Shown here: positions 8,272 through 26,726 of the stretch, in pieces
How positions within the stretch are numbered: position 1 is the first letter of the stretch
Layout: each line of letters opens with the position of its first letter
Sequence record: MT664721
Source of the DNA: Escherichia phage vB_EcoM_APEC
Strand: one strand, 5' to 3'
DNA length: 35,832 nt
Translations under genes and position numbers: made by a program
Notes under the pieces: generated by a model
The model's input: only the letters and a program-made list of their open reading frames with translations
Database searches by the model: none
What the model was told of the DNA's origin: nothing

Positions 8272-8280
8272 GGAGGCAGA

Positions 8281-14839: not shown

Positions 14840-15189
14840 CCTTCCTCCACGTCAAGTATGGCTTGTTTTACTCTTGCGGTGTTTATATACCCTATGCCAC
14901 AGTCCAGCTTGACCAGTAGGTCCGCATGTCCTGCATACTCACAAGCTGCAACATCAGCCTTGGCCTGATCTAAAGATTTGAATAGCCCGAGAATCTCATG
15001 ACTTTCGACAAGTCGCTTTAGGTCGCAAAGACTGACAAATGGGCAATTTTCGGTTGGAGCAATCGCTATAAATGTATATTCCATCATATCGGGCAGATAG
15101 ACATCGGTTTCTGGATAATCACACCAGCAATCAACAATAAGCTTTGCGGTTTTATATCCTTTCTTCTTCACAAACTCAGTCGCTTTCAT
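14836..15189 (-). CDS. hypothetical protein, 117 aa
   Basis: Coupled ORF in the minus-strand operon; no motif recognised. Confidence 0.5.
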   Translation of the reverse strand: MKATEFVKKKGYKTAKLIVDCWCDYPETDVYLPDMMEYTFIAIAPTENCPFVSLCDLKRLVESHEILGLFKSLDQAKADVAACEYAGHADLLVKLDCGIGYINTARVKQAILDVEEG

Positions 15190-15497
15190 CCTGCAATCTC
15201 CAAAAAATTAATAAACTGTTGTTTTAAATGTTTTAATCCACTTGCATTGATTGGCAAAACACCTGTTTCTTCATTGTTTACTGTTGCGTAATCATGCATC
15301 AGCTTAATCTTAATTCCATCAACTTCCACATCATTCCAAGACTGAAACCCATTGCCATCTTTAAAGCGTCTTATGTCACAGTCAACTTGAGCCATGACAT
15401 AAGCTTCGTCCTCACCTTGCTTAAATTCAACTTCAAATAAATCATCTTTCCAATTTGAAATCTTAACTTCAGCTTGTTCTGTAATGTTCATAATCAC
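15186..15497 (-). CDS. hypothetical mildly acidic protein, 103 aa
   Basis: Coupled ORF; net-acidic composition; no motif recognised. Confidence 0.5.
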   Translation of the reverse strand: MIMNITEQAEVKISNWKDDLFEVEFKQGEDEAYVMAQVDCDIRRFKDGNGFQSWNDVEVDGIKIKLMHDYATVNNEETGVLPINASGLKHLKQQFINFLEIAG

Positions 15498-15533
15498 CTC
15501 ACTTATTATGAGGCAATTATATATGCTTTAATA

Positions 15534-15710
15534 TTATTTAGCAACTGGTGAGCAGTAGTAAAACTTGCTTTCATTTGCTTCGTATCTTTCATTTAACTGG
15601 TGCGCCACATATTCGCATTCCTGCTTATCCGAAAAGCGCGAATGGCTCACAAGTTCATTGTAGTAGTCGCCATTAGTTAGAGCGACAAATAAAACGATTA
15701 CATAGCTCAT
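15534..15710 (-). CDS. small protein with N-terminal hydrophobic segment, 58 aa
   Basis: ATG at rc 15708-15710 with AGGTG upstream, just after the exonuclease stop; MSYVIVLFVALT looks like a signal peptide or membrane anchor. Confidence 0.45.
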   Translation of the reverse strand: MSYVIVLFVALTNGDYYNELVSHSRFSDKQECEYVAHQLNERYEANESKFYYCSPVAK

Positions 15711-15718
15711 TTTACACC

Positions 15719-16330
15719 TCAATACATTTCCAAAATTTTGTCTTTAATTGCTTGGGTCTGTTCATTGTAGAGCTTGACCAAGGCTTCTATGTTTTCAATC
15801 TTATCTCTTACATCATTCGCATAAACACGTTTAACAAATAACGGAAGATTCGGGCAGTAGCTTACAAAGTCCATCCATTGAAGTTCTGCACAGGAAATAC
15901 CGCCTATCAGTTGATCTATATGCTCCTTCGGTATTTCACCTGAACGCAAGATAGCAATCTGAGTCTTTGGTGTTTTAACCTTAATCTCTATGCCTCCAAT
16001 AGGGATTTTATCAGGAATGATCAATCCATCTGGTGAATAACCAAATCCCTTATTCTTCACAAAAGAAACCATAGAAACCGTATAGCCTGTCTTTTCCTCA
16101 TACCGCTGACGTGCTTTAGATTCTAGCTGCTGACCTCTTTTAGTCCATTCATTACCCTGAAAAACCTCTGCCGGTTCATGATTAATTAACTCATAAGCCA
16201 GACCATTAATATAGCTCTGAGCGCCTACTCCATTTGCCCGAATGGTTGAAATCTCCGAACAGGTGATTAGACCTAAGCGCAAGTCCAACCACTCAGGAGA
16301 ACCCTGTTCTATTCCGGTGATGATTTGCAT
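15719..16330 (-). CDS. YqaJ-like (lambda-exonuclease-type) recombination exonuclease
   Basis: N-terminal QGSPEWLDLRLGLITCSE resembles the YqaJ family; PD-(D/E)xK-like SPDG...EIK; paired with the ERF gene. Confidence 0.75.
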   Translation of the reverse strand: MQIITGIEQGSPEWLDLRLGLITCSEISTIRANGVGAQSYINGLAYELINHEPAEVFQGNEWTKRGQQLESKARQRYEEKTGYTVSMVSFVKNKGFGYSPDGLIIPDKIPIGGIEIKVKTPKTQIAILRSGEIPKEHIDQLIGGISCAELQWMDFVSYCPNLPLFVKRVYANDVRDKIENIEALVKLYNEQTQAIKDKILEMY

Positions 16331-17028
16331 TATTCACCCTTTTCCAGCTTGGCTAATTTGGTATTTAAAACCCCGACCCAATAATCGAAATCATTTTTAG
16401 GTATCTCGTGCAACTCACAGCCAATATGAGCCTCCATTAATCCTCTTGCTTCTGCACCAAACTGAGATAACTTTTTCTCTATAACAGAAACTTGCTGCGG
16501 TGAAATCGTAATAGCCACCTGCCCATCGTTATCTTCAGCAATAACCAGACCTAGCAATGCTCGCATAGTGTAACGCTGTGCATAACTAATTGCTGAGCCA
16601 TAAGACTGTATATCTGACTTGCTGCCTCCCTTATCCGGCGCAACCTCCATTGAAGACTCTTCGCTGTGCCCACCAACGTGCGAGCAGATGCACGTAACGC
16701 GAGATTTACCATCAGCACATGCTTGGGTAGCCCATCGAATAAACAAGCCATGCTTACGCAATACAGGGTCAATACGGCTTTGTATATACTCAAGCTTTGC
16801 ATACTTAGAGTTATGACCACGACTAGACTTTTCCAAAACTGGTTTTTCCATTTGAAATGCCAGCATTGCCTGATCAAATTGCTGCTTGGCCTGATTGCGC
16901 TGTACACGTTCATGAAGCTCAAGCATCTTTTCAAGTTTCCCCACGTCTGCATCTGGACTGGTTGCAACACGTTCAATAATGCTAATCATCGGGTCAACAT
17001 TATTATTTCTTTCGATTAACTCACTCAT
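16330..17028 (-). CDS. ERF-family single-strand annealing protein
   Basis: SKYAKLEYIQSRIDPVLRKHGL and SYAQRYTMRALLGL resemble conserved ERF regions (P22 Erf type); first gene of the minus-strand operon. Confidence 0.8.
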   Translation of the reverse strand: MSELIERNNNVDPMISIIERVATSPDADVGKLEKMLELHERVQRNQAKQQFDQAMLAFQMEKPVLEKSSRGHNSKYAKLEYIQSRIDPVLRKHGLFIRWATQACADGKSRVTCICSHVGGHSEESSMEVAPDKGGSKSDIQSYGSAISYAQRYTMRALLGLVIAEDNDGQVAITISPQQVSVIEKKLSQFGAEARGLMEAHIGCELHEIPKNDFDYWVGVLNTKLAKLEKGE

Positions 17029-17043
17029 TTTTAACCACCTCTC

Positions 17044-17089
17044 TTGTTGTAATGGATTTAATAATATAATATAGTACGTACTGTTGCAA
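17044..17089. promoter_or_regulatory. divergent sigma70-like promoter region with central 10 bp palindrome AGTACGTACT
   Basis: Plus strand: TTGTAA (17047-17052), 17 nt, TATAGT (17070-17075); also TATAAT at 17065-17070. Minus strand: TTGCAA (17084-17089), about 17 nt, TATTAT-like. Palindrome at 17073-17082 overlaps both. Confidence 0.45.
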
Positions 17090-17101
17090 GAGGAAATTTA
17101 T

Positions 17102-17260
17102 ATGGACAAACAAAACCGTACAAGATTGCAAGTCTCAATTCACAATGAAAAGGAAAAAGACCTTCTCGATAAACTTAAAAAACGAGAGAATTTTTCTGGT
17201 GAAACTAAAGAACTATGGCTGGCTAAGTTAAAAAGTGAGGAGAGTAAAAATGGAAATTGA
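17102..17260 (+). CDS. small ribbon-helix-helix-like protein, 52 aa (tentative)
   Basis: ATG at 17102 with AGAGGA upstream; RTRLQVSIHNEKEKDLLDKLKK resembles an Arc/CopG-type RHH; below track cutoff; overlaps next gene start by 11 nt. Confidence 0.3.
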   Translation: MDKQNRTRLQVSIHNEKEKDLLDKLKKRENFSGETKELWLAKLKSEESKNGN

Positions 17261-17609
17261 TATTCAAATTGACTTAAGACGTGGCGGTTTTGAAGCAATG
17301 CACCCAAATGCAAGGCTATTTAACTTTGATTCTGAAAAAATGGTTTATTTTGGCGAAGGATCGGAAGGCATTAATAGTCAATGGACTACTTGGTGCGCGT
17401 GCATTGGAATGTTGCACTTAGAGACTGGGGAAGCCAAAGCCCAAGCAGTGCCGGAATGCAAATGGTCTAAAAATCAAGGTGGGTTTTACGACACATCATG
17501 CATCAATGCTTTTGTGTTCCCAGAGTCTGATGACACTCCAGAATATCATGAATTTACGCATTGCCCTTTTTGTGGTGGAAAGTTAAGCGAACCTCAGGAG
17601 GCCAAATGA
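17250..17609 (+). CDS. hypothetical protein with C-terminal zinc-ribbon-like motif, 119 aa
   Basis: ATG at 17250 with GAGGAG upstream; C-terminal HCPFCGGKL. Confidence 0.5.
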   Translation: MEIDIQIDLRRGGFEAMHPNARLFNFDSEKMVYFGEGSEGINSQWTTWCACIGMLHLETGEAKAQAVPECKWSKNQGGFYDTSCINAFVFPESDDTPEYHEFTHCPFCGGKLSEPQEAK

Positions 17610-17968
17610 ACAAATTAAAAATAGCACATGACTATTTCATGAAACATGGAAGTCCTGAAAATTTCAGTACAGACATTGCAGAGGCATGGGAATATGCAGA
17701 CCGGATGATTGAGCAAGAACAGCGTCGAGAAGACAAAACCAGACCAGAGGTTTTACGCGACAAAGAATGGCAGCCGGACTGGTCGCAAGCTCCGGTTTGG
17801 GCGTATTACTGGGCTAGAGATAGCAACGGTTTGTGCCATTGGTATAGTGGGGAGGTATGTATAAATGAAAATGAATTCTACCCAAGTGAATTTGGACAAT
17901 TATGGGATGATGCACCACTTTTCGGCTACTCAGGCGACTGGCGCGAGTCACTAAGAAAGCGGCCATGA
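17606..17968 (+). CDS. hypothetical protein, 120 aa (shares a Trp-rich domain with 24706..24918)
   Basis: ATG at 17606 overlapping the previous stop, AGGAGG upstream; C-terminal pattern DWS.AP...W.A.DS.G...GDWRESL..RP. Confidence 0.5.
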   Translation: MNKLKIAHDYFMKHGSPENFSTDIAEAWEYADRMIEQEQRREDKTRPEVLRDKEWQPDWSQAPVWAYYWARDSNGLCHWYSGEVCINENEFYPSEFGQLWDDAPLFGYSGDWRESLRKRP

Positions 17969-18351
17969 ATTTATTTGATGCTGCGGAATATGCAGAAAGT
18001 TTAAGCAATTGCAAGAAACGTCCAGTCGGGTGCAGTCTTGCAATAAATGGTGAAGTGGTTGCCATTGGATTTAATCATGCAGACAGTAAATGTAAATGCA
18101 AAATGCATGAAGAAAATTCAAAGGTTGAACATGCTGAAATATGTTGTCTGAAGCATTACGAGTTTCTAAAACAGGACTGTTCAGAATTGGCAGTGACTTA
18201 CATCTGTTGCCTGAATTGCTCTAAAGAAATCGTAAAGCGTGGCATTAAGAAGGTGTACTACCGCGACCATAGACCCGAAACAGACAAACAGTTAGGCATT
18301 AACTATTTAAAATCACACAATGTAGAGGTATCGAACCAATGGAACAGTTAA
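17965..18351 (+). CDS. cytidine/deoxycytidylate deaminase-like zinc-binding protein
   Basis: HAE motif followed by CCLNC (PC..C-like) at the spacing typical of CMP/dCMP deaminases. Confidence 0.55.
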   Translation: MNLFDAAEYAESLSNCKKRPVGCSLAINGEVVAIGFNHADSKCKCKMHEENSKVEHAEICCLKHYEFLKQDCSELAVTYICCLNCSKEIVKRGIKKVYYRDHRPETDKQLGINYLKSHNVEVSNQWNS

Positions 18352-18866
18352 TTAAACAGATTGAACAATGGGCAGAAGATCGGAATATTATTAATGGGAG
18401 CAAACCAATTGACCAAGCTATGAAACTGTTTTCAGAATTTGGCGAACTCGCAGACAATGTAGGGAAGGGTCGTGATTGCCGCGATGATATTGGCGATGTT
18501 TTTGTTGTGCTGACTATTATGGCGAAGCAATTAAATCTTAACATCAAAGGTATCGAAATTGTTAAATCTGAATCTAAGCCAATATTTAACTTAAAAAATA
18601 TGGTTGTTGACCTAGGGATGTCTTTAAATTATTTTTCTCGTTCAGAAAACCAATTAAACTTAAAAAATGCGGTTAATGAGTTACAAACAATTTCTGCAAT
18701 TTATGGTTATGATTTAAAAGAATGCGTCCAAATCGCCTACAACGACATTAAGGACAGAAAAGGTATTTTATGGAATGGGGTATTTGTAAAAGAAAGTGAT
18801 TTGAGTTATAATGCTTGTGTTGAAGCTTATAGAGAATCGCTAAGTGAGAAAAACACAGAAAATTAA
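18339..18866 (+). CDS. MazG-like nucleoside triphosphate pyrophosphohydrolase
   Basis: FSEFGELADNV...DDIGDVFVVL matches the MazG E..GE...D..GD pattern. Confidence 0.55.
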   Translation: MEQLIKQIEQWAEDRNIINGSKPIDQAMKLFSEFGELADNVGKGRDCRDDIGDVFVVLTIMAKQLNLNIKGIEIVKSESKPIFNLKNMVVDLGMSLNYFSRSENQLNLKNAVNELQTISAIYGYDLKECVQIAYNDIKDRKGILWNGVFVKESDLSYNACVEAYRESLSEKNTEN

Positions 18867-19497
18867 TATTATTGGTAGTAGGTTTGGCAACCTCGTAGTG
18901 CTAAGCGAGGTTGCTGAAAGAAACAAGAATGGTCATATTTTATATACTTGTGAGTGTGATTGTGGAAACAAAAAAAACATACTAGGGTCTTCATTAAGGC
19001 AGAAGCTTACGACTTCTTGCGGCTGTGTTCATAAAAAAAAGATAACAAAACACGGAATGGATGGAACTAAGGTTTATAGAACTTGGGTTGGAATGAGGAA
19101 TAGATGCAACAACCCAAATAATAGAAGATTTCACGATTATGGTGGCAGAGGTATTTCTGTTTGCAATGAGTGGAATAACTCTTTTGATGCGTTTTATTCG
19201 GATATGGGAGAACCAAAGCCAAATCAATCTATAGAACGGATAGACAACTCAAAACCATATTGCAAAGAAAATTGTGTATGGGCAACTAACAAACAACAGT
19301 GTAATAACAGGAGAAGCTCAGTGGTTGTTTATTTTGATGGTATTGAGATGACAGTAGAGGAATACTCAAAAAAAGTAGGCTTGTCAGTATCAGGGGCAAG
19401 AAAAAAAGTGATTCGAGAATTTACTAGATTTGGGAACGTATTCATCAAAGAATCTGACCCAGCCTATGCGGATGCTTGCAAGGAGCTGGGCAAATGA
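18844..19497 (+). CDS. HNH-family-like nuclease motif protein, 217 aa
   Basis: Cys-rich; YRTWVGMRNRCNNP...YGGRGISVCNEW...IERIDNSKPY..NCVWAT..QQCNNRR recalls phage HNH-like proteins; family assignment uncertain, start codon uncertain. Confidence 0.4.
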   Translation: MRKTQKINIIGSRFGNLVVLSEVAERNKNGHILYTCECDCGNKKNILGSSLRQKLTTSCGCVHKKKITKHGMDGTKVYRTWVGMRNRCNNPNNRRFHDYGGRGISVCNEWNNSFDAFYSDMGEPKPNQSIERIDNSKPYCKENCVWATNKQQCNNRRSSVVVYFDGIEMTVEEYSKKVGLSVSGARKKVIREFTRFGNVFIKESDPAYADACKELGK

Positions 19498-19754
19498 ACG
19501 AATCACAAAAAGCACTGGTGAATAACTTTGCTCAGTTCTTGGGTATATTGAATCTACCAGCCAATGACATATCTCCAAAAATAGATGCAGAAGGTAAAAT
19601 CTATTTTGAAGATCAGGAAACAATGAAAGCCTTCTCTGCATTCCGATATGCCTATGCAACAGGTTTTACTTCTGGTCGCAATGTCATGTATAAAAAACTG
19701 ACAGAACTGTCGGGAAAATACATGGCTGACCTTATGGCCGCAGCACCGAAATAG
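19494..19754 (+). CDS. hypothetical protein, 86 aa
   Basis: ATG overlapping the previous stop (ATGA) with AGGAG upstream. Confidence 0.45.
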   Translation: MNESQKALVNNFAQFLGILNLPANDISPKIDAEGKIYFEDQETMKAFSAFRYAYATGFTSGRNVMYKKLTELSGKYMADLMAAAPK

Positions 19755-19762
19755 GAGCTTAT

Positions 19763-19942
19763 ATGAAAAGCAAAATGACAGCAGCCATGTGGCTTGCTAA
19801 GATTCAATCTGAATGTAAGCACTTTTGGGTTCACGATAGTATGGGCTATCAAAAGAAGTGCAGCAGATGTGGAAAAGTGGAGCAACTTAAATTAACTACG
19901 CAATATTCAAAAACTTTTAAAGAAAGCTGGAATATTTATTAA
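19763..19942 (+). CDS. small Cys/His-rich protein, 59 aa
   Basis: ATG at 19763 with AGGAG upstream; ECKH...CSRCG pattern; below track cutoff; followed by a terminator. Confidence 0.35.
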   Translation: MKSKMTAAMWLAKIQSECKHFWVHDSMGYQKKCSRCGKVEQLKLTTQYSKTFKESWNIY

Positions 19943-19982
19943 AGTTTAGTTATATTGCAATAACTCACTTAAACCCTTTCCA

Positions 19983-20013
19983 AGCCCGGTGCCCTCACAC
20001 TGGGTTCTTTTTT
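19983..20013 (+). terminator. rho-independent terminator
   Basis: Imperfect 9 bp stem (AGCCCGGTG / CACTGGGTT with G-U pairs) followed by CTTTTTTG. Confidence 0.5.
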
Positions 20014-20015
20014 GC

Positions 20016-20043
20016 TTGCAAATAATATTAAAGCAATTATAAT
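20016..20043 (+). promoter_or_regulatory. sigma70-like promoter (TTGCAA, 16 nt, TATAAT)
   Basis: -35 TTGCAA at 20016-20021 and consensus -10 TATAAT at 20038-20043; GAGG at 20064-20067 and ATG at 20073 downstream. Confidence 0.5.
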
Positions 20044-20072
20044 AATAAAGCATACTAACAAGTGAGGTTAAA

Positions 20073-20258
20073 ATGTCTGCAAAAGAAAAAGCAAAACTGG
20101 CTTATAAAAAGCACTGTGCTGCGAAACTAAAAATTATCAATATCCGGTTTAACGTAGTTGATCATGAAGACGAAGCGCAAGCCTTTGAACATATCAAGTC
20201 GCAACCAAACCAGAAAAAATACATTCTTAAATTAGTAAAAGAGGACATGATTAAATGA
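20073..20258 (+). CDS. hypothetical basic protein, 61 aa
   Basis: First ORF downstream of the promoter at 20016-20043; GAGG RBS. Confidence 0.45.
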   Translation: MSAKEKAKLAYKKHCAAKLKIINIRFNVVDHEDEAQAFEHIKSQPNQKKYILKLVKEDMIK

Positions 20259-20890
20259 CTTTTCAAATCGGACAGGAAGTGGAAATTATAGGATTAGCAC
20301 CATTTGATGATAGATTCAATGTAGCTATAGGTGATAGAGGTATTATTATTAATATCAACACCAATTCTCATATAAAGATATCCAATCCAAAATTTACGGG
20401 AAGTGCTGCCGGAGAAGGTTTCTTTTATGCCCACAAGTCAAACGTAAGAATTGTTGAATCAAAACCTTTATACGAAGACTCAGGCAGAAACAAACTTAGA
20501 CTCTGGCTTAAGACTGTATGTAAAGAGTATGACTTTACCCTTGAGCAGCTATCATTAAATCTAGGATTCAACGAAAGCTATCTAAGCAATGTAGGCAGCA
20601 AGTCACGTTTTGAAAAACGCGGTGATATTAATTCAGAAGAATATAGAAAACTGGTTAATAATTTCCTTGTGCATGATTACAAAGAATGTAGACATACCAT
20701 GGCTCAGCTTGTTGAACAGATTGATAGCCTTGACGATGATCTGAGAGAGTGCAGGGGAGAAAACTACAAGTGCAATAGATACCTAGAACAAGCAAACAGG
20801 AATACCGAGTACTGGATGAGAAAGTTACCTAAAACCAGATTTCAGGCGTTTAAACTATTTATTAAAATGATGTTTGGAGGCCAGCCATGA
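20255..20890 (+). CDS. hypothetical protein with putative helix-turn-helix segment, 211 aa
   Basis: Central segment FTLEQLSLNLGFNESYLSNV resembles an XRE-type HTH; overlapping-stop coupling. Confidence 0.45.
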   Translation: MTFQIGQEVEIIGLAPFDDRFNVAIGDRGIIININTNSHIKISNPKFTGSAAGEGFFYAHKSNVRIVESKPLYEDSGRNKLRLWLKTVCKEYDFTLEQLSLNLGFNESYLSNVGSKSRFEKRGDINSEEYRKLVNNFLVHDYKECRHTMAQLVEQIDSLDDDLRECRGENYKCNRYLEQANRNTEYWMRKLPKTRFQAFKLFIKMMFGGQP

Positions 20891-21078
20891 CACCTGAAGA
20901 AATCAGAAAGAAAGCGCCAGAGGGAGCGACGCATTATATGAAGTCAATCATATTTTTGGATAGCGTTGACCTAATAACATATTTCAAGTGCGAAAATGGT
21001 AAATTCTTTGAATACTTCGCTCATCATTTCGCTAGGTACGAAACTGGTGTTCACCCAACCTTGATTAAGCCCCTCTAG
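20887..21078 (+). CDS. hypothetical protein, 63 aa (paralog of 14096..14293)
   Basis: Shared N- and C-terminal motifs with the minus-strand 65 aa protein; stop codon lies in the loop of the terminator hairpin. Confidence 0.5.
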   Translation: MTPEEIRKKAPEGATHYMKSIIFLDSVDLITYFKCENGKFFEYFAHHFARYETGVHPTLIKPL

Positions 21079-21090
21079 GGGCTTTTTATT
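21067..21090 (+). terminator. rho-independent terminator
   Basis: Hairpin AAGCCCC-TCTA-GGGGCTT followed by TTTTTATTTG. Confidence 0.65.
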
Positions 21091-21206
21091 TGCCCTTTAT
21101 ATTAGTTTTTCTTATTAATTTTAATTTAATTAATAAAAATTATTTATTTTACTTGTCACAATAAGATTAATAAAATAACCATATTGTTACTACCATCGAG
21201 GATAAG

Positions 21207-21437
21207 ATGATTTTACAAAAGCCTTTATTTTGGCACTGGTGCAAACAAGAAACTGGAAATATAGCATATTTGGCTAGAGAGTTAGGCGTAAGCCGAACAT
21301 TTGTTTCATTTCTTGTTAGTGGTAAAAAGCCCATACCTCTTGAACATATACCGAAGATTAAACAAGTAACTGGTCTAAAAGCCAAAGAATTGCGACCTGA
21401 TGTTTATGAAATTTTTAAGGATGATTTAGATGACTGA
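21207..21437 (+). CDS. Cro/YdaS-like helix-turn-helix DNA-binding protein
   Basis: GNIAYLARELGVSRTFVSFLVSGKKPIP resembles Cro/YdaS-type HTH regulators; first gene after the AT-rich intergenic region, upstream of the replication genes. Confidence 0.55.
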   Translation: MILQKPLFWHWCKQETGNIAYLARELGVSRTFVSFLVSGKKPIPLEHIPKIKQVTGLKAKELRPDVYEIFKDDLDD

Positions 21438-21642
21438 AATGCCAAAAGATGCCTTGTTCTTTATGAACTGGTTTGAAAAAGAATATCCAGAATTTGTAAA
21501 TCAGTATGGTCAGGTCAAAGGATTTTATGATCAATCCTCTGATGAGTTCCAGATTGAGGAAATACAGGATGCATATATCGAAAGAAAGAAAGGCAATGAG
21601 CCGTTACCCATGTATTTTGGCGACAGTGGTCAGTTTAGATAA
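21430..21642 (+). CDS. hypothetical protein, 70 aa
   Basis: Coupled ORF between the HTH gene and the replication initiator. Confidence 0.45.
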   Translation: MTEMPKDALFFMNWFEKEYPEFVNQYGQVKGFYDQSSDEFQIEEIQDAYIERKKGNEPLPMYFGDSGQFR

Positions 21643-21651
21643 GGAAAGGTT

Positions 21652-22389
21652 ATGAGTAATTGGATTCCAAATTCTTTTCAGCTTCCAAATTCATTGGTTG
21701 ATGAGAAGTACCTAGTAGAGCTAAAAGGTTCTCCATTAGCTATGTACATCTTCATTGTGAGGAAAACTAGAGGCTGGCAGAAAGAATGCGACAATATCAG
21801 CTTGTCTCAATTTGAGGAGTTTACCGGATATGGTAAAGATGCAGTTTTAACAGGAGTGAATAAGCTTGTTGAGCTTGGTTTAGTTAAGCGCGTTTCTTAT
21901 GAAAACAAGACTTCTTTTTACGAGTTAAATGATCAGCCATTACCTCCTGAAAAGATGCTGTCGGAAAATCCGCTAGCGGAAAATCCGACAAGTGCTGTCG
22001 GAAAATCCGACAAGTTGCTGTCGGAAAATCCGACACACAATAACAAAGAAAACAACTTTAAAAAAACAAATATAAATAACCATCCTAAAAAATTTGAGTT
22101 CAAGAAGGAATTACTAAAACTTGGGGCTAGTGAAGACTTAGTAAATGATTGGTTGATTGTTAGAGGGAATAAGAAGGCATCAAACACCCAAACTGCTTTC
22201 AATGGGTTTTTAAAACAAGTGAATGATTCTGGACTTGATGCTGAAACCGTTCTGAAAATCTGTGTTGATAAATCTTGGAGTGGCTTTAAGAAATCATGGT
22301 TATCGAATATTGATCTATCTGAATACCAGACAGAACCCAAGGAACCGAAGCAAGACAGTACATACGAAATTGAACTGGTGGAATATTAA
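21652..22389 (+). CDS. replication initiator, lambda O-like N-terminal domain
   Basis: LAMYIFIVRKTRGWQKECDNISLSQFEEFTG parallels the lambda O N-terminal domain (RKTYGW...SQ); iterons and an AT-rich tract lie inside the gene. Confidence 0.8.
   Translation: MSNWIPNSFQLPNSLVDEKYLVELKGSPLAMYIFIVRKTRGWQKECDNISLSQFEEFTGYGKDAVLTGVNKLVELGLVKRVSYENKTSFYELNDQPLPPEKMLSENPLAENPTSAVGKSDKLLSENPTHNNKENNFKKTNINNHPKKFEFKKELLKLGASEDLVNDWLIVRGNKKASNTQTAFNGFLKQVNDSGLDAETVLKICVDKSWSGFKKSWLSNIDLSEYQTEPKEPKQDSTYEIELVEY
21959..22035. repeat. four iterons (17 bp palindromic unit TGTCGGAAAATCCGACA), putative origin-binding sites
   Basis: Copies at about 21959, 21975, 21996 and 22019 (two perfect, two variant), followed by an AT-rich tract (22036-22100), all inside the O-like gene. 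Confidence 0.7.
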
Positions 22390-23693
22390 TGACTACATCA
22401 CTACATGCCATAAACTTTGAACAATACGTTCTATGTTTTCTAATGGACAATGAAAACGGATTAAGCTTTTTGAAAGTTAAACCCAAGGTTGAGCATTTCT
22501 ATGCTGACCGACACAAGGAGATATTCAAGGTAATTGAATCACTGGCATTTCAGGGAAAGCCTTATGATTATGAAATCGTCCTTGATCAACTAAAAACACT
22601 AGGTCTTGATTACAAGGTCGGGGGTGAGGAATATTTCAAGGAAATGATGAGTAACTTTGCAGCTCCTAGTGCTGTGAACGGATTTCATGAAAAACTGATA
22701 AAGCTGGAAGAATGCAGAAGGGTTGAGGAGGTAGGAAACAAGATTTTAGAACTATCACGAAACACTATGATTGATGATATGCCTAGAATCGCACAGGAGC
22801 TTGCTAGCGGCTTAGAAACTGTTTTTGTGAGTGACAGTACCATCAGCCTAACAGAAAGCGCTGCTGAAGCTCTGAGCGTCATTCACGATAAGTTGACTCA
22901 CAAGAAAGAAAACAGGGGAACAGCTTATGGCGTGAACACTGGTTTACGTGATCTTGATGCGACTCTAGGAGACATTGAGCCATCACATTTGTGTGTTATT
23001 GCTGCTGCCCCGGGTGGGGGTAAGACTACACTGGCACAAATGATTGCTTTGAATGCAGTGAAAAAGAATAATGCCCCTACAATTTTCTTTTCATGCGAAA
23101 TGGCACACTACGAGATAACCAACCGGATTATTAGTGCTGAGTGCAGAATCCCAATAGAGCGGATCCAGAACGGTACAATGGACAGTGATGATTACGAGCG
23201 CTGGGTTCAGACTACTGCAACGGTTTTCCCAAACTATAAGCTGGATATTGTAGACAAGGCAGCAATAAGCATTGGTGAAATCAGATCTGAAATACAGAGA
23301 ACAATTAAGCGACATGGGAAAGTTGGCTGTGTGATTGTTGATTACCTTCAGCTTGTTGAAGATAAAAATGCAAAGGATAACTTTGAAAAAATATCAAATG
23401 TTTCTACTGGTTTAAAACGAATAGCCAAAGACTTCAAGGTTCCGGTTATTGCTCTGTCGCAGCTAACGAAAGAGGCTCAAGGCAGAAGAATTACCATGTC
23501 GGATTTACGTGGTTCAGGCCAGATTTCACAAGATGCAGACAAGATCATTCTTTTGCATCCAGATGAAAAAACTCTAGGTCTGATTGTTGCGAATGTGGCA
23601 AAGAATCGGCAAGGACCTAAAGGTGAATCTCGGTTAATTTCCGCTTTTGATATATGTCAGTTTGGAAACATCAGACGGCAAGATGACTTTTAA
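22389..23693 (+). CDS. DnaB-family replicative DNA helicase
   Basis: DnaB-like N-terminal domain; Walker A AAPGGGKTTLAQ; RecA-like C-terminal region (DYLQLV, SQL). Confidence 0.85.
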   Translation: MTTSLHAINFEQYVLCFLMDNENGLSFLKVKPKVEHFYADRHKEIFKVIESLAFQGKPYDYEIVLDQLKTLGLDYKVGGEEYFKEMMSNFAAPSAVNGFHEKLIKLEECRRVEEVGNKILELSRNTMIDDMPRIAQELASGLETVFVSDSTISLTESAAEALSVIHDKLTHKKENRGTAYGVNTGLRDLDATLGDIEPSHLCVIAAAPGGGKTTLAQMIALNAVKKNNAPTIFFSCEMAHYEITNRIISAECRIPIERIQNGTMDSDDYERWVQTTATVFPNYKLDIVDKAAISIGEIRSEIQRTIKRHGKVGCVIVDYLQLVEDKNAKDNFEKISNVSTGLKRIAKDFKVPVIALSQLTKEAQGRRITMSDLRGSGQISQDADKIILLHPDEKTLGLIVANVAKNRQGPKGESRLISAFDICQFGNIRRQDDF

Positions 23694-23822
23694 TTTTAAA
23701 AACCAATGAGTAATGAGAGGAATATAAAATGTCAATTAAAGAAATCTGTCAGCACGAATATCAATATTCTTGGATTTATGATTCTTGGATGTGCATTCAT
23801 TGCGATAAATTAAAAAACAGTA

Positions 23823-23851
23823 TTGACTGAATTAATATTAAAGCATATAGT
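23823..23851 (+). promoter_or_regulatory. sigma70-like promoter (TTGACT, 17 nt, TATAGT)
   Basis: -35 TTGACT at 23823-23828 and -10 TATAGT at 23846-23851; GTGAGGA RBS and ATG at 23878 downstream. Confidence 0.5.
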
Positions 23852-23877
23852 TTGTATAAATTAGTGAGGACTAGATT

Positions 23878-24066
23878 ATGTTTAAAAAGTTACAAATTCA
23901 ATTAAATGACGCTATCCGTAAACAAGACGAGCTGGCTGTTAAACTGGCTGAAGCTCAAGACGATTTCCTTATTGCCAAGCTTGACGAATTGTATAAATCG
24001 GCTTCTGAATGGGTAGATTTATTGCAACGTCAAGTTAATCGCGAACAAAGAAGGGCCGCTAAATAA
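23878..24066 (+). CDS. hypothetical coiled-coil-like protein, 62 aa
   Basis: First ORF after the promoter; GTGAGGA RBS. Confidence 0.45.
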   Translation: MFKKLQIQLNDAIRKQDELAVKLAEAQDDFLIAKLDELYKSASEWVDLLQRQVNREQRRAAK

Positions 24067-24109
24067 GCGGCTTCACTTACTAACAAGCAGGAGTTGGAAA
24101 CTATATAAA

Positions 24110-24280
24110 ATGAAAACCCAGCAACAGATTGAAGAAATGAAAAAGAACATTCAGGAAAGAATTGATGAGTGTCATCGTATGGCTATGATGCAGCCAAGCA
24201 GAAGTGAAGCTGATAAATGGTTTGATTCAAAGCGTCAATTTATGGCCCAATACAACATTTTACTGGAGGTTTTGAAATGA
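24110..24280 (+). CDS. hypothetical protein, 56 aa
   Basis: ATG at 24110 with GGAG upstream; below track cutoff; stop overlaps the next start (ATGA). Confidence 0.4.
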   Translation: MKTQQQIEEMKKNIQERIDECHRMAMMQPSRSEADKWFDSKRQFMAQYNILLEVLK

Positions 24281-24450
24281 TTACATGGGTAACAGTGTGG
24301 GTTTTAACGGTATTTCCTTTTGATGGAGGCTCTTCAAGATACTCATATCAATTGCAATACTCCAGTCAGAAAATATGCGAAAATCAGAGGGAGAATAGGA
24401 AAGGTATCTCCCGTTGTGACTTCCAACAAATACCAGTGGTGATGAAATGA
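24277..24450 (+). CDS. small protein with N-terminal hydrophobic segment, 57 aa
   Basis: ATG overlapping the previous stop; MITWVTVWVLTVFPF hydrophobic; stop overlaps the next start at 24447. Confidence 0.4.
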   Translation: MITWVTVWVLTVFPFDGGSSRYSYQLQYSSQKICENQRENRKGISRCDFQQIPVVMK

Positions 24451-24713
24451 GCAGATTACAAGTAGGTGGGTTGGCTTTACACTTAAAAAGTGGTTTAACT
24501 TGCAAGCTCCTAGCATTCTATGGTGATGGTTATACTAGAAGCGGTTACTTAAAAAAAGAAAATTGGAGATGTGATTTTGGAGAAAAAGTTCAATGTGAAA
24601 ATACGGGTGTATGGGGTCAGGTTATGTTTGAGGAAGCTAAATACCTCTTACCCCTAGGCGACAAACAAACCCAAGATGAACTAGCAAAAGAGAAGGAATT
24701 AGAGGATGCCTAA
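24447..24713 (+). CDS. hypothetical protein, 88 aa
   Basis: Coupled ORF (overlapping stops and starts). Confidence 0.5.
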   Translation: MSRLQVGGLALHLKSGLTCKLLAFYGDGYTRSGYLKKENWRCDFGEKVQCENTGVWGQVMFEEAKYLLPLGDKQTQDELAKEKELEDA

Positions 24714-24918
24714 ATATGATTGGTCAAATGTGCCAGATGAAGTTAAGTGGATTGCTACCGACTCAGATGGATGGATTTCAATGCACACAATAAAACCTGA
24801 GCCTGTCTTAAATATTAATTGGATAGACAGCTCAGAAGAAGGGTATTTAGTTTTAATCAAAGGCAGCCCATTCAATGGTGATTGGAAAGAAAGCCTAGAG
24901 GAGCGACCAGGTGTTTAA
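24706..24918 (+). CDS. hypothetical protein, 70 aa (shares a Trp-rich domain with 17606..17968)
   Basis: Pattern DWSNVP...W.ATDSDG...GDWKESLEERP parallels the C-terminal half of the 17606 gene product. Confidence 0.5.
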   Translation: MPKYDWSNVPDEVKWIATDSDGWISMHTIKPEPVLNINWIDSSEEGYLVLIKGSPFNGDWKESLEERPGV

Positions 24919-25162
24919 AAATTTAAAAATCGCAATAATAGACGAGCAGCATTTAACTGCTGTTTGCGAGGTGCTGGAAAGTATGGGGTATCATCCATAC
25001 CAACCAAGTAAAAGACTACAATTTATTTATACTCAGACAGATGGGCTTTATTCATTTGGTGATGATTGTGTTTCTAGTATTTCTTATGAAACTGTAACCC
25101 TTCGCGACCTTCTGCAAATGCGTGATGAAATGGTAAAGGAGAAGATTAATGGACTTAATTGA
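24911..25162 (+). CDS. hypothetical protein, 83 aa
   Basis: Coupled ORF. Confidence 0.5.
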   Translation: MFKNLKIAIIDEQHLTAVCEVLESMGYHPYQPSKRLQFIYTQTDGLYSFGDDCVSSISYETVTLRDLLQMRDEMVKEKINGLN

Positions 25163-25550
25163 AAAGCTGTGTGGGTATGAGAACTCGAAGCGATTATTTC
25201 ATGTATACGATCACGCACTAATGTTTAGATATTATCCAAACTATTCTGAGAACTCAGATAATTTCGTTAATGTTTTTGTGCTTGATTTAAAAACAGCCCT
25301 TCTCGAATACCGCCGAGCAAATAATATTTTTGAGGTTGGGGATAAGGTTGTAGAGATAACAGATTATCCTAGCAATGATGTACTAACAGTTAAATCTATA
25401 TCGGATAATCTATTAGTGTGTGAAAGTGATGATCTTAGCGCAAGTTATATTTTGTCTAATAAATATAAGCCTTATTCTTATGTTAGTCACGCTACCGATG
25501 CAGAAATCGAAGCAGACCATCGCCTACCAGAGAAGGATAAAGATGTTTAG
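25149..25550 (+). CDS. hypothetical protein, 133 aa
   Basis: Coupled ORF. Confidence 0.5.
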   Translation: MDLIEKLCGYENSKRLFHVYDHALMFRYYPNYSENSDNFVNVFVLDLKTALLEYRRANNIFEVGDKVVEITDYPSNDVLTVKSISDNLLVCESDDLSASYILSNKYKPYSYVSHATDAEIEADHRLPEKDKDV

Positions 25551-25752
25551 CTATGAGGGTTTATTCGCTGCATCTTTGATAATTTCAATATTTATTATGC
25601 TGTTTATGTTGTTTTATCTAAGTGAACTGAACAGGGCTAAAAAATATATAAAACCCTGTTCTGTTTTAGTCTTTGTCTATGCGGTAATTACGGTTTTTAT
25701 CGTTCTGCCGATTTTTCTTTACGATGTAATTATTTGGTTTTTAAGTGTGTGA
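25543..25752 (+). CDS. small membrane protein, 69 aa, two predicted TM helices
   Basis: ATG at 25543 with AAGGA upstream; two long hydrophobic stretches. Confidence 0.45.
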   Translation: MFSYEGLFAASLIISIFIMLFMLFYLSELNRAKKYIKPCSVLVFVYAVITVFIVLPIFLYDVIIWFLSV

Positions 25753-25760
25753 GGTGAACC

Positions 25761-26726
25761 ATGATTAGTATGAATAGCAGTTTAATTAACCATGCATTGA
25801 GTGATCAGTTAGCCAGAGAAGTTGAGGAATTTCTGGCGCGTGGTGGAAAAGTAAAGTCTGAAGGTATTCAGCGCCGTGATATTGAGGAATTAACGCCGGA
25901 CTTTAAGCGCGACTTTGTAATATCAGGAAGAAAACCTGAAATGGTCAAGGCTGAGAAAAAGGAAGAAAAAGAACCTAAACCAAAGAAAGAGAAGGTTAAG
26001 GTGATTATACCAAAGCCAGAACCTAAACCGAAACGCGAACCTAAGCCCAAGAAGCAGGTAGTCAAAGTAGTTAAGGCCAAACCATTGCCGAAACCAAAGC
26101 CAGAACCTAAACCAAAGAAAGAGAAAAAAGAAAAGGTATTTACTAAAGAGACCTTAAGGGTTAGAGCTAACCAGAAATCGCGTGAAGATGCTTTGAAAAA
26201 GGGTATGGATACTTTTGAAGGTGAGTGTAAAAAGCATGGCATGACTGTATTTAAGATTCACAGTGATGCATTTAGATGCCGTGAATGTGCAGAGCTTGAC
26301 AAGCAGCGCAGAACTGAAGCCAAGAGAGCTAAACGTGATCAGCGAGAAGTTAGAAATGAGGATAGAAAGAAAGCGGCTATTGCAAATGGTTATACTAAAT
26401 TTGATGCTGAATGCCTGCATCATGGCTTAACCGAGCATCATCTTACGAGGAATAGCCGTAATCACACAATTATGGTGTGCACCTTATGCAAGAAAGAAAC
26501 TAACAAGCGAACTGTAGAGAGAAGGAAGAAAGTCCAGTACAGGGATTATGAGCGTAACGCTTTTATTAGAAATCAACTGGCCAATAGAAGAATAAGCTGT
26601 GTTGCGCTGGCAGATGCGATTAATGCTAGTCCATCAACCATGAATAAGATTAAACGTGGTGAACAGCTTTGCAGCGATAGACTATGGCAAGCCATTAATC
26701 AGTTCTTTGAAAAACTTGATAAATAA
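25761..26726 (+). CDS. DNA-binding protein with Lys/Pro-rich repeats, duplicated Cys-containing motif and C-terminal helix-turn-helix, 321 aa
   Basis: GAGGTGA RBS; EPKPK repeat tract (about residues 67-122); two copies of a (F/K)(E/D)..EC..HG.T....CxxC motif; C-terminal RRISCVALADAINASPSTMNKIKRGEQ resembles an HTH. Confidence 0.55.
   Translation: MISMNSSLINHALSDQLAREVEEFLARGGKVKSEGIQRRDIEELTPDFKRDFVISGRKPEMVKAEKKEEKEPKPKKEKVKVIIPKPEPKPKREPKPKKQVVKVVKAKPLPKPKPEPKPKKEKKEKVFTKETLRVRANQKSREDALKKGMDTFEGECKKHGMTVFKIHSDAFRCRECAELDKQRRTEAKRAKRDQREVRNEDRKKAAIANGYTKFDAECLHHGLTEHHLTRNSRNHTIMVCTLCKKETNKRTVERRKKVQYRDYERNAFIRNQLANRRISCVALADAINASPSTMNKIKRGEQLCSDRLWQAINQFFEKLDK

What the first reader, a model, noticed from the sequence alone, without database searches (positions are those of the whole stretch)
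17965..18866. Adjacent deaminase-like and MazG-like genes suggest nucleotide pool manipulation
A zinc-dependent CMP/dCMP-deaminase-like protein sits directly upstream of a MazG-like pyrophosphohydrolase, with no thymidylate synthase seen nearby. They might bias dNTP pools, degrade alarmones or support base modification.
Basis: partly seen in the sequence, partly recalled or inferred. Interest (0 to 1): 0.4.

Follow-up and report, generated by a model that had tools for sequence, protein, structure and literature searches.

The report
Phage deaminase plus dUTPase-like thymidylate cassette
Two overlapping early genes of a roughly 36-kb Acinetobacter-type phage encode a dCMP-deaminase-family enzyme and a MazG-like pyrophosphatase that most likely stands in for a dUTPase; together they are an ordinary module feeding dUMP to thymidylate synthesis, not a sign of exotic DNA chemistry.

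Summary
ORF 17965-18351 is a 128-aa zinc deaminase of the dCMP-deaminase family with intact HAE and CxxC motifs. Its best sequence and fold matches are solved dCMP deaminases. ORF 18339-18866 overlaps it by 13 nt and is a 175-aa all-alpha MazG-superfamily pyrophosphatase.

The MazG-like protein reaches no Pfam threshold. Its predicted fold is closest to dimeric dUTPases. In every informative related locus the deaminase is followed by either this MazG-like gene or a canonical trimeric dUTPase, never both. This holds even in phages 93-97% identical on both flanks. ThyA or ThyX completes the cassette in some relatives.

Best reading: a thymidylate-precursor module that turns dC nucleotides into dUMP and keeps dUTP low, with the host supplying thymidylate synthase. 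Alarmone hydrolysis and base modification have no support. Substrates were not assayed, and whether the deaminase takes dCMP or dCTP cannot be told from sequence.

Three side findings:
- The MazG-like family has a hypervariable central domain, as S. aureus phage dUTPases do.
- An HNH homing endonuclease has inserted into the 3' end of the MazG-like gene.
- A C-terminal tail is shared by both enzyme types.

Ordinary overall, with modest added interest.

The parts
17965..18351 (+). Gene for a 128-aa zinc-dependent deoxycytidine-nucleotide deaminase (dCMP-deaminase/DCTD family)
   Evidence: PF00383 at 43.4 bits against cutoff 25. phrog_174 at 1.6e-21. phmmer best PDB hit is cyanophage S-TIM5 dCMP deaminase 4p9c, 2.3e-12, full length. 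AF2 model pLDDT 93. Foldseek top 15 are all dCMP/dCTP deaminases of this family.
18130..18219 (+). Catalytic zinc motifs: H56-A-E58 (18130-18138) and C81-C82-L-N-C85 (18205-18219)
   Evidence: Read from the sequence. H56, E58, C82 and C85 are invariant in the 44-sequence family alignment A3. N37, C43 and S14 are also invariant, and C16, H38 and C45 nearly so.
18326..18351 (+). Gene junction: GAGG ribosome-binding site (18326-18329) and the ATG of the second gene (18339) inside the last codons of the deaminase, giving a 13-nt overlap. It is also the left boundary of the exchangeable cassette.
   Evidence: Sequence. The same 13-nt overlap occurs in phiAC-1, L003, L030 and L032 whichever gene follows. 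Homology with L007 breaks at 18344/18345. L007's trimeric dUTPase starts at the same ACCAATGGAA.
18339..18866 (+). Gene for a 175-aa all-alpha NTP pyrophosphatase of the MazG superfamily; inferred dUTPase (possibly d(C/U)TPase) analogue
18435..18497 (+). Predicted metal-binding acidic motif E33-x-x-E36 ... D50-x-x-D53 on two adjacent helices
   Evidence: E33 is invariant and E36, D50 and D53 are at least 90% conserved in alignment A4. They lie on helices 23-43 and 48-64 of the model. They align with ExxE...ExxD of the phiNM1 dimeric dUTPase in a weak hhalign match, E 0.11.
18531..18713 (+). Hypervariable central region of the MazG-like protein (residues 65-125)
   Evidence: Mean column entropy is 2.2-3.1 bits here, against 0.05-0.35 bits for residues 11-60 and 131-140. 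There is no nucleotide similarity to L003 across exactly 18531-18714, although both sides align.
18844..19497 (+). HNH homing-endonuclease gene inserted into the 3' end of the MazG-like gene. Its last 20 codons (19438-19497) are the displaced original C-terminus of the MazG-like protein.
   Evidence: phrog_374 at 4.7e-65. It is absent from the near-identical phage L003, whose MazG-like C-terminus equals the HNH ORF's last 19 aa at 100%. Window 18718-19467 is 96.8% identical in nucleotides to L035, an otherwise different phage, where the HNH is frameshifted.
17047..20006 (+). Tentative transcription unit holding the cassette: promoter-like site 17047-17075, tightly packed ORFs, terminator-like hairpin 19983-20006
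   Evidence: Consensus scans only. Site counts are no higher than in shuffled sequence. ORF packing with overlapping stops and starts.

Best explanation
The two genes form the core of a phage thymidylate-precursor cassette. The first product is an active zinc deaminase of the dCMP-deaminase (DCTD) family. It converts deoxycytidine nucleotides (dCMP, possibly dCDP or dCTP) into the matching deoxyuridine nucleotides. The second product is translationally coupled to the first. It is a Mg2+-dependent all-alpha nucleoside-triphosphate pyrophosphatase that does the job a dUTPase does in sister phages: it hydrolyses dUTP, and perhaps dCTP, to the monophosphate plus pyrophosphate. The pair would therefore push dC nucleotides towards dUMP and keep dUTP out of DNA. 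This phage has no thymidylate synthase, so the host enzyme would make dTMP. The net effect is a higher dTTP supply for a 41% G+C genome.

Shown: family membership, intact catalytic motifs, predicted folds, gene coupling, and slot equivalence with trimeric dUTPase.

Inferred: enzyme activities, substrate phosphorylation state, dUTP specificity and reliance on host ThyA.
For: Deaminase:
- PF00383 above threshold.
- Best solved relative is S-TIM5 dCMP deaminase, by sequence and by fold.
- The HxE and CxxC motifs and Asn37 are invariant.

MazG-like protein:
- PHROG MazG-like families.
- Acidic ExxE...DxxD motif.

Slot equivalence:
- In 16 informative, non-duplicate loci carrying a deaminase at least 41% identical, the deaminase is followed within about 1.3 kb by either the MazG-like gene or a trimeric dUTPase (PF00692), never both.
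- MazG-like: window, L003, L008, L027, L028, L034, HFM1.
- Trimeric dUTPase: L007, L024, phiAC-1, L023, L025, L029, L030, L032, L033.
- L007 is 93-97% identical to the window on both flanks and differs only in this slot. Its dUTPase passes the NCBIfam dut cutoffs.
- The cultured sister Obolenskviruses Brutus and Scipio show the same one-for-one swap in identical gene order.
- The listed Acinetobacter phages with one type do not overlap those with the other. Complete genomes carry only one type.
- None of 40 further MazG-like loci has a trimeric dUTPase within 10 kb.

Pathway context:
- Canonical ThyA follows the cassette in L033 and L034, lies two genes upstream of the deaminase in HFM1 and just upstream of the MazG-like gene in L054. 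ThyX follows the cassette in L028 and L042.
Against: - No enzyme activity was measured.
- The MazG-like protein matches neither Pfam dUTPase_2 (PF08761) nor the phiNM1 dimeric dUTPase by BLASTP. Its sequence core looks more MazG-like than dUTPase-like.
- At the position aligned, weakly, with the Ala/His-Phe deoxyribose-stacking pair of dimeric dUTPases it has Val-Val. Uracil specificity therefore cannot be read off.
[quoted passage not shown] The first step may not be dCMP to dUMP.
- The MazG-like family is far more widespread than the deaminase and mostly occurs without it. A broader house-cleaning role is possible.
Confidence: 0.6

Rival explanations
1. The MazG-like protein is a general house-cleaning or pool-biasing (d)NTP pyrophosphatase, for example with a dGTP/dCTP preference or acting on damaged dNTPs. 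It would then be functionally independent of the deaminase, and its adjacency would reflect shared early expression only.
For: The sequence core gives sub-threshold MazG (PF03819) and MazG-like (PF12643) hits, not dUTPase_2. The family mostly occurs without the deaminase: 38 of 40 loci. Characterised phage MazG proteins are (d)NTP pyrophosphatases (PMC6850273, listed).
Against: It does not explain the strict either/or exchange with trimeric dUTPase in the same slot, including in near-identical phages. It also does not explain why full-length fold similarity is best to dimeric dUTPases.
Confidence: 0.2
2. The deaminase acts on dCTP, giving dUTP. The downstream enzyme is obligatorily coupled because it must immediately hydrolyse that dUTP to dUMP. 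This would be a phage copy of the bacterial Dcd-Dut route built from unrelated protein families. It is a variant of the best explanation rather than a true alternative.
For: The deaminase is always followed by a dUTPase-type gene, often with overlapping codons. DCTD-family enzymes annotated as dCMP deaminases in phages PBS1, DSS3_VP1 and PhiR1-37 are dCTP deaminases, and PBCV-1 has a dCMP/dCTP enzyme (PMC12697855; 7fh4 among the fold hits).
Against: The closest solved relative, S-TIM5, was crystallised with dCMP and dUMP. Nothing in the sequence discriminates the phosphorylation state.
Confidence: 0.25
3. The pair supports a modified genome such as dU-DNA: the deaminase makes dUTP and the MazG-like enzyme destroys dTTP. 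Alternatively, it supplies a precursor for a hypermodified base.
For: The window has no thymidylate synthase and no canonical dUTPase. dU-DNA phages do combine a DCTD-family deaminase with a dTTP- or dTMP-degrading enzyme (PMC12697855).
Against: Phages 93-97% identical on both flanks carry a bona fide dUTPase in this slot. The MazG-like gene sits beside canonical ThyA or ThyX in L034, L028, L042, L054 and HFM1. Either arrangement would be futile or self-defeating for dU-DNA. The known dT-nucleotide-degrading enzymes of dU-DNA phages belong to other families: HAM1, HD and deoxyribonucleotidase. No hydroxymethylase, glycosyltransferase or uracil-glycosylase-inhibitor candidate was found.
Confidence: 0.03
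4. The MazG-like protein degrades (p)ppGpp or another alarmone or immune signal. The deaminase would then be incidental.
For: Only the historical hypothesis for phage MazG proteins. The hypervariable domain suggests some interaction with a variable partner.
Against: Cyanophage MazG does not hydrolyse magic-spot nucleotides (PMC6850273, title). The interchangeability with dUTPase and the thymidylate-synthase context point to dNTP metabolism. There are no PADLOC or anti-defence family hits.
Confidence: 0.03
5. The deaminase is a weapon: a dCTP-depleting or nucleic-acid-editing enzyme used for superinfection exclusion or host shut-off, like AvcD or the anti-phage dCTP deaminases, or the MafB19-type toxins.
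For: Weak hits to NF041025 anti-phage dCTP deaminase (22 bits) and PADLOC 'dCTPase' (19.7 bits). PF14437 MafB19-deam scores 28.8 bits against a cutoff of 27.
Against: The defence-family scores are far below their cutoffs (22 against 400). The 128-aa protein lacks the N-terminal kinase-like domain. PF00383 outscores PF14437, and the best structural matches are metabolic dCMP deaminases. The conserved dUTPase and thymidylate-synthase partners indicate metabolism.
Confidence: 0.03

Closest known systems
Cyanophage S-TIM5 dCMP deaminase (PDB 4P9C/4P9D/4P9E)
   Same: Small single-domain DCTD-family enzyme (138 aa against 128 aa). Aligned end to end at 36% identity. It shares HAE and (P/C)CxxC, the loop-3 Asn, and a similar Cys/His pattern in loop 3. 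It is the best hit by both sequence and fold.
   Different: Only about 36% identical. The G(W/Y)NG motif reads GFNH here. Substrate and allosteric behaviour are untested. The S-TIM5 structural paper could not be read, so ligand-contact residues were not mapped.
Acinetobacter phage phiAC-1 gp77-gp78 (putative deoxycytidylate deaminase plus dUTP diphosphatase)
   Same: Same deaminase family (50% identity). Same position after a divergently transcribed Erf/exonuclease block. Same 13-nt overlap with the downstream gene.
   Different: The downstream gene is a trimeric beta-fold dUTPase (PF00692) with no detectable similarity to the MazG-like protein. phiAC-1 is a myovirus of the Obolenskvirus type; the window is podovirus-like.
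Dimeric (all-alpha) dUTPases of S. aureus phages (phiDI, phiO11, phiNM1; PDB 5MYD/5MYF/5MYI) and of Campylobacter and trypanosomatids
   Same: Best structural matches. Similar size (about 160-178 aa). Conserved N- and C-terminal catalytic parts flank a hypervariable central region of about 50-60 residues. In both cases the enzyme alternates with trimeric dUTPases at one phage locus (PMC5608427).
   Different: No significant sequence similarity and no PF08761 match. The motif IV Ala/His-Phe pair is not recognisable. No known partner equivalent to the SaPI repressor Stl. Activity untested.
Phage T4 pyrimidine module: Cd (dCMP deaminase), gp56 (dCTPase-dUTPase), Td (thymidylate synthase)
   Same: Same logic: a DCTD-family deaminase and a d(C/U)TP pyrophosphatase feed dUMP to thymidylate synthase. 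T4 Cd is among the fold hits (1vq2). That gp56 belongs to the all-alpha d(C/U)TPase group is from my own knowledge and was not tested here.
   Different: T4 uses the module for hydroxymethyl-dC DNA and encodes its own Td and dCMP hydroxymethylase. This phage has neither. No comparison with gp56 was run.
MazG proper (PF03819) and MazG-like (PF12643) house-cleaning pyrophosphatases, including cyanophage MazG
   Different: Never reaches the Pfam gathering score. It carries two extra variable helices and a conserved C-terminal helix-hairpin (YNDIKDRKG...NGVF.KE). Its genomic behaviour is that of a dUTPase substitute.

Membership tests
dCMP deaminase / DCTD family (Pfam PF00383; InterPro IPR016473) | Profile match above the curated threshold | tested here: met
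   PF00383 scores 43.4 bits against cutoff 25, E 3.4e-11, covering residues 8-99.
dCMP deaminase / DCTD family (Pfam PF00383; InterPro IPR016473) | Catalytic zinc site H-x-E ... (P/C)-C-x-x-C with the proton-shuttle Glu | tested here: met
   H56-A-E58 and C81-C82-L-N-C85 are present. H56, E58, C82 and C85 are invariant in 44 homologues.
dCMP deaminase / DCTD family (Pfam PF00383; InterPro IPR016473) | Closest solved relatives are mononucleotide dCMP deaminases rather than tRNA, base or DNA deaminases | tested here: met
   phmmer finds only 4p9c and 2hvv. Foldseek ranks 1-15 are all dCMP/dCTP deaminases of this family; RibD and TadA come lower.
dCMP deaminase / DCTD family (Pfam PF00383; InterPro IPR016473) | Conserved Asn at the start of loop 3 that docks the nucleoside | tested here: met
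   N37 is invariant. It aligns with the Asn of GWNG in S-TIM5 and of GYNG in S. mutans. Its role is described in PMC4683357.
dCMP deaminase / DCTD family (Pfam PF00383; InterPro IPR016473) | Second (structural) metal site in loop 3 | tested here: inconclusive
   C43 is invariant and C16, H38 and C45 are nearly invariant. The pattern resembles the Cys/His pattern of S-TIM5 in the alignment. No coordinates were available to check the geometry.
dCMP deaminase / DCTD family (Pfam PF00383; InterPro IPR016473) | dCMP as substrate, and allosteric control by dCTP and dTTP | not testable with these tools
   Family members range from dCMP- to dCDP- to dCTP-specific (PMC12697855). The G(Y/W)NG motif is GFNH here.
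ComEB-type bacterial dCMP deaminase (NCBIfam TIGR02571 equivalog) | Equivalog score cutoff | tested here: not met
   31.9 bits against cutoff 219.45.
MazG (PF03819) / MazG-like (PF12643) | Profile match above the curated threshold | tested here: not met
   The window protein scores 13.2 bits against cutoff 22. No Pfam domain is on record for any of the 120 listed homologues. 32 of 43 members give only sub-threshold hits, best E 1.6e-4.
MazG (PF03819) / MazG-like (PF12643) | All-alpha four-helix core with the acidic ExxE...(E/D)xxD metal-binding motif | tested here: met
PHROG 1992 / 715 'MazG-like pyrophosphatase' | Profile match | tested here: met
   E 1.8e-64 for phrog_1992 (residues 1-171) and 1.2e-33 for phrog_715. 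The annotation rests on homology only; no assayed member turned up.
Dimeric dUTPase (Pfam PF08761 dUTPase_2) | Sequence membership (profile or pairwise similarity) | tested here: not met
   No PF08761 hit for any of the 43 members. BLASTP against the phiNM1 dimeric dUTPase (itself PF08761, 9.3e-19) gives nothing. hhalign E is 0.11.
Dimeric dUTPase (Pfam PF08761 dUTPase_2) | Overall fold beyond the four-helix core | tested here: met
Dimeric dUTPase (Pfam PF08761 dUTPase_2) | Uracil- and deoxyribose-recognising residues (motif IV His/Ala-Phe pair; motif V Asn/Lys/Arg) | tested here: inconclusive
   V56-V57 sit at the weakly aligned motif IV position. A conserved C-terminal N135...K138.R140 could correspond to motif V, but no superposition was possible.
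Dimeric dUTPase (Pfam PF08761 dUTPase_2) | dUTP/dUDP hydrolysis | not testable with these tools
   Indirect support only: one-for-one replacement by trimeric dUTPase.
Anti-phage dCTP deaminase (AvcD / NCBIfam NF041025; PADLOC dCTPase) | Full-length match including the N-terminal kinase-like domain | tested here: not met
   22 bits against cutoff 400, matching only residues 50-101. PADLOC scores 19.7 bits over 23 residues. The protein is only 128 aa.
dU-DNA biosynthesis set (deaminase plus dTTP/dTMP-degrading enzyme; no dUTPase or thymidylate synthase) | A dT-nucleotide-degrading enzyme, and absence of dUTPase and thymidylate synthase in the lineage | tested here: not met
   Near-identical and related phages carry a canonical dUTPase, ThyA or ThyX in the same cassette. 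The known Dtt and Dtm enzymes belong to other families.

The most novel reading that the evidence does not exclude
The widespread 'MazG-like pyrophosphatase / DNA-binding protein' family has more than 1,200 clusters and covers the Obolenskvirus, Pbunavirus, Streptococcus and Vibrio phage proteins that carry this annotation. It may be an unrecognised third sequence class of phage dUTPase. If so, the dUTPase slot of Acinetobacter phages would be an arms-race locus like the Dut locus of S. aureus phages. Near-identical phages swap trimeric dUTPase, MazG-like alleles with unrelated central domains, and a portable C-terminal tail. That pattern would imply an unknown host, satellite or defence protein that senses phage dUTPases in Gram-negative bacteria.
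Probability: 0.2. Interest if true: 0.6.

Novelty: new member of a known kind. Interest (0 to 1): 0.33.

Why it matters
In itself the finding is routine: another phage carrying pyrimidine-deoxynucleotide genes. It matters in three modest ways.

- It gives a testable functional assignment (dUTPase analogue) to a very common phage protein family. Pfam does not cover that family, and genome records label it variously as MazG-like, NTP pyrophosphohydrolase or DNA-binding protein.
- 'No thymidylate synthase nearby' should not be read as a hint of modified DNA. The cassette is modular (deaminase, then either kind of dUTPase, then ThyA, ThyX or nothing), and this phage simply has the shortest version.
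- The conserved-variable-conserved architecture and the allele and fold swapping mirror the S. aureus Dut-Stl system. That raises the possibility that dUTPases are sensed by parasites or defences in Gram-negative hosts too.

Tried and rejected
- Nucleotide search of 17000-20000 against phages found only a 184-nt patch in Acinetobacter phage Abp95. Relatives therefore had to be found at the protein level.
- The first word-indexed protein search gave only 4 deaminase homologues. A profile search gave 55.
- Scans of genome and metagenome collections first failed because the alignment was too divergent. They then gave only 5 loci. Two are metagenome-assembled genomes labelled Erysipelothrix and Streptococcus, most likely mis-binned phage contigs. 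No prophage copy was found.
- I tried to read the S-TIM5 dCMP deaminase structure paper to map substrate and allosteric contacts. It is not held, so the substrate phosphorylation state is left open.
- I tested whether the MazG-like protein is a sequence-level dimeric dUTPase. BLASTP and tblastn against phage phiNM1 and a Pfam scan were negative, and hhalign was insignificant. Membership is rejected; only fold and context resemblance are kept.
- The Staphylococcus phage tblastn hits turned out to be short MazG-like proteins of Kayvirus-type phages matching only residues 5-70. They are not the dimeric dUTPases.
- The defence and anti-defence reading was rejected.
- The dU-DNA and alarmone readings were rejected on context.
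- Literature searches found no assayed member of this MazG-like family.
- The promoter and terminator scans are no better than shuffled sequence and serve only as tentative operon limits.
- The representative-library HMMER search was not used. It carries no annotation or context and would not have settled substrate specificity.
Full report
**1. Observation.**
- They overlap by 13 nt. The second ATG lies inside the last codons of the first gene and is preceded by GAGG, the usual arrangement for translational coupling.
- The first start codon overlaps the stop of the upstream ORF (ATGA).
- Both genes sit in a tightly packed rightward early block. It starts after a divergently transcribed Erf/exonuclease pair (15719-17028, minus strand) and precedes an O-like initiator and a DnaB helicase.

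**2. The genome.**
- PHROG scans show a podovirus-like structural set: portal, scaffold/protease-like protein, major capsid, tail tubular proteins A and B, internal virion proteins, large terminase, tailspike, holin and endolysin.
- The replication and recombination genes are lambda-like. There is no DNA polymerase, RNA polymerase or integrase.
- Four independent metagenomic contigs of 35.3-36.0 kb are closely related (about 75-98% nucleotide identity over the aligned parts) and start at different points. The 35.8-kb window is therefore very probably a complete genome.
- Protein-level relatives are Acinetobacter phages (phiAC-1, HFM1, Abp95, Obolenskvirus). Overall G+C is 41%.

**3. The deaminase.**
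- It passes the Pfam dCMP_cyt_deam_1 threshold (43.4 against 25 bits) and matches phrog_174.
- Its only PDB sequence hits are two dCMP deaminases: cyanophage S-TIM5 (2.3e-12, end to end) and Streptococcus mutans.
- An AlphaFold model built on 44 homologues is confident (pLDDT 93).
- The 15 best Foldseek matches are all dCMP or dCMP/dCTP deaminases: S-TIM5, human DCTD, S. mutans, PBCV-1 bi-DCD and T4 Cd. RibD and TadA rank lower.
- H56, E58, C82, C85, N37, C43 and S14 are invariant. C16, H38 and C45 are nearly so. The catalytic zinc site and the loop-3 asparagine are intact, and a second loop-3 metal site is plausible.
- Hits to anti-phage dCTP deaminases are negligible (22 bits against a cutoff of 400).
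- Sequence cannot settle the phosphorylation state of the substrate. Enzymes of this family annotated as dCMP deaminases have been shown to prefer dCTP or dCDP (PMC12697855).

**4. The MazG-like protein.**
- No Pfam or NCBIfam model reaches threshold. PHROG families named MazG-like pyrophosphatase match strongly (1.8e-64).
- The big protein database holds 1,227 homologous clusters; none of the 120 listed has a Pfam domain on record. 32 of 43 sampled members give only sub-threshold MazG hits.
- Records label the family as MazG-like, NTP pyrophosphohydrolase or DNA-binding protein. It occurs in Obolenskvirus, Pbunavirus, and Streptococcus, Vibrio and jumbo phages. I found no assayed member.
- The alignment shows a near-invariant N-terminal 64 residues carrying E33xxE36 and D50xxD53. 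A hypervariable middle follows (residues 65-125). The C-terminal YNDIKDRKG...NGVF.KE segment is conserved.
- The AlphaFold model is confident (pLDDT 92).
- There is no sequence-level membership in the dimeric dUTPase family.

**5. Genomic context, the most informative evidence.** I collected loci encoding deaminases at least 41% identical to this one and labelled their neighbours with tblastn.
- In all 16 informative, non-duplicate loci the deaminase is followed, usually with overlapping codons, by one of two genes and never both.
- The MazG-like gene follows in the window, L003, L008, L027, L028, L034 and HFM1.
- A canonical trimeric dUTPase follows in L007, L024, phiAC-1, L023, L025, L029, L030, L032 and L033.
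- L007 is 95-97% identical to the window up to position 18344 and 93% identical from 19489 onward. Between those points the window has MazG-like plus HNH, while L007 has a trimeric dUTPase that starts at the same ATG and passes the NCBIfam dut cutoffs.
- The cultured sister Obolenskviruses Brutus and Scipio have identical gene order around the slot, with MazG-like in one and dut in the other.
- The Acinetobacter phages listed with one type do not overlap those listed with the other. Complete genomes checked carry only one type.
- None of 40 further MazG-like loci has a trimeric dUTPase within 10 kb.
- Canonical ThyA follows the cassette in L033 and L034, lies two genes upstream of the deaminase in HFM1 and just upstream of the MazG-like gene in L054. 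ThyX follows the cassette in L028 and L042, where deaminase, MazG-like and ThyX are contiguous.

**6. Interpretation.** The pair is the minimal version of a modular thymidylate-precursor cassette.
- The module order is: deaminase; then a dUTPase function supplied by either of two unrelated folds; then optionally ThyA or ThyX.
- The most likely mechanism has three parts. dC nucleotides are deaminated to dU nucleotides. dUTP, and perhaps dCTP, is hydrolysed to the monophosphate. Host thymidylate synthase makes dTMP.
- That Acinetobacter encodes thyA, dcd and dut is from my own knowledge and was not tested here.
- Confidence in the whole statement is about 0.6. It is higher (about 0.85) for 'active dC-nucleotide deaminase' and lower (about 0.55-0.6) for 'dUTP is the key substrate of the MazG-like enzyme'.
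- A variant in which the deaminase acts on dCTP would explain the obligatory coupling especially well, but cannot be told apart here.

**7. Rivals.**
- A general house-cleaning pyrophosphatase remains possible (about 0.2). It does not explain the either/or exchange.
- dU-DNA or another base modification is very unlikely. Near-identical phages carry a true dUTPase, and relatives place a thymidylate synthase beside the MazG-like gene.
- Alarmone hydrolysis and a defensive deaminase have no support.

**8. Comparison with known systems.**
- The closest relatives are S-TIM5 dCMP deaminase (family member), phiAC-1 gp77-gp78 (same cassette, other dUTPase fold), the T4 Cd/gp56/Td logic, and the S. aureus phage dimeric dUTPases.
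- The last resemblance goes beyond fold. Those enzymes also have conserved catalytic ends around a 50-60-residue hypervariable 'motif VI', and they alternate with trimeric dUTPases at one locus. That pattern is attributed to an arms race with the SaPI repressor Stl (PMC5608427).
- Whether anything similar operates in Acinetobacter is unknown. This is the most novel reading the data allow (probability about 0.2).

**9. Side observations.**
- An HNH homing-endonuclease gene (18844-19497) has inserted into the 3' end of the MazG-like gene. The near-identical phage L003 lacks it.
- The last 19 residues of the HNH ORF are identical to the L003 MazG-like C-terminus.
- The 750-nt segment 18718-19467 is 96.8% identical to a segment of an otherwise different phage (L035), where the HNH is frameshifted.
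- A C-terminal peptide, LDNIEADKRMASQKRISVNIEDL, is fused in frame both to many MazG-like proteins and to the trimeric dUTPase of L030.
- HFM1 has a TnpB gene inserted between its deaminase and MazG-like genes.

**10. Verdict.** The feature is a real but ordinary nucleotide-metabolism module, a new member of a known kind. Modest extra interest comes from the inferred dUTPase-analogue role and the plasticity of the MazG-like slot.

Noticed in passing
window 18718-19497 (HNH ORF 18844-19497; displaced MazG-like 3' end 19438-19497): An HNH homing-endonuclease gene has inserted in frame into the 3' end of the MazG-like gene. It gives that gene a new C-terminal tail and carries the original C-terminus at the end of its own ORF. 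The near-identical phage L003 lacks it. The same 750-nt cassette (96.8% identical) sits after a quite different MazG-like allele in L035, where the HNH is frameshifted. A promoter-like site (18784-18812, 10 of 12 matches) lies just upstream.
   Followed up: yes
window 18531-18713; family alignment A4: The central 60 residues of the MazG-like protein are hypervariable (2.2-3.1 bits of column entropy), while the flanks are almost invariant. Between the window and L003 this segment has no nucleotide similarity, although both sides align. The pattern matches 'motif VI' of S. aureus phage dUTPases.
   Followed up: partly
L030 5793-6335; proteins P0033, P0056, P0061, P0067, P0101, P0112; L035 6156-6233: A C-terminal peptide of about 23 residues (LDNIEADKRMASQKRISVNIEDL) is attached in frame to many MazG-like proteins and also to a trimeric dUTPase. 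It is a portable tail shared by two unrelated enzymes in the same slot. Its function is unknown.
   Followed up: partly
L002 (Acinetobacter phage HFM1) 4476-5534: A TnpB (RNA-guided endonuclease family) gene is inserted between the deaminase and the MazG-like gene of HFM1. Thymidylate synthase lies two genes upstream of the deaminase.
   Followed up: no
window 27079-28354: A second HNH endonuclease gene (27079-27780, phrog_953) is followed by a 193-aa ORF. The close relative L003 has a single 400-aa gene at the corresponding place (L003 12240-13442), and nucleotide similarity is lost across window 27225-28348. This may be another homing-endonuclease insertion or a gene replacement.
   Followed up: no
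whole window; L003, L007, L024, L022, L023: The window looks like a complete genome of about 35.8 kb: four related contigs of 35.3-36.0 kb start at different points. It combines T7-like virion genes with lambda-like replication and recombination genes and has no polymerase genes. Two related contigs are filed in public MAGs as Erysipelothrix and Streptococcus, probably through mis-binning.
   Followed up: partly
window 23-448: An acetyltransferase-like ORF (phrog_1249, 1.3e-25) sits between the tail tubular B gene, at the other end of the window, and the internal virion protein genes.
   Followed up: no
window 1-10000 and 29000-35832 versus 15000-29000: G+C is 43-47% in the structural genes but 36-40% in the early, replication and accessory region. 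This fits the mosaic, frequently exchanged nature of the early region.
   Followed up: no
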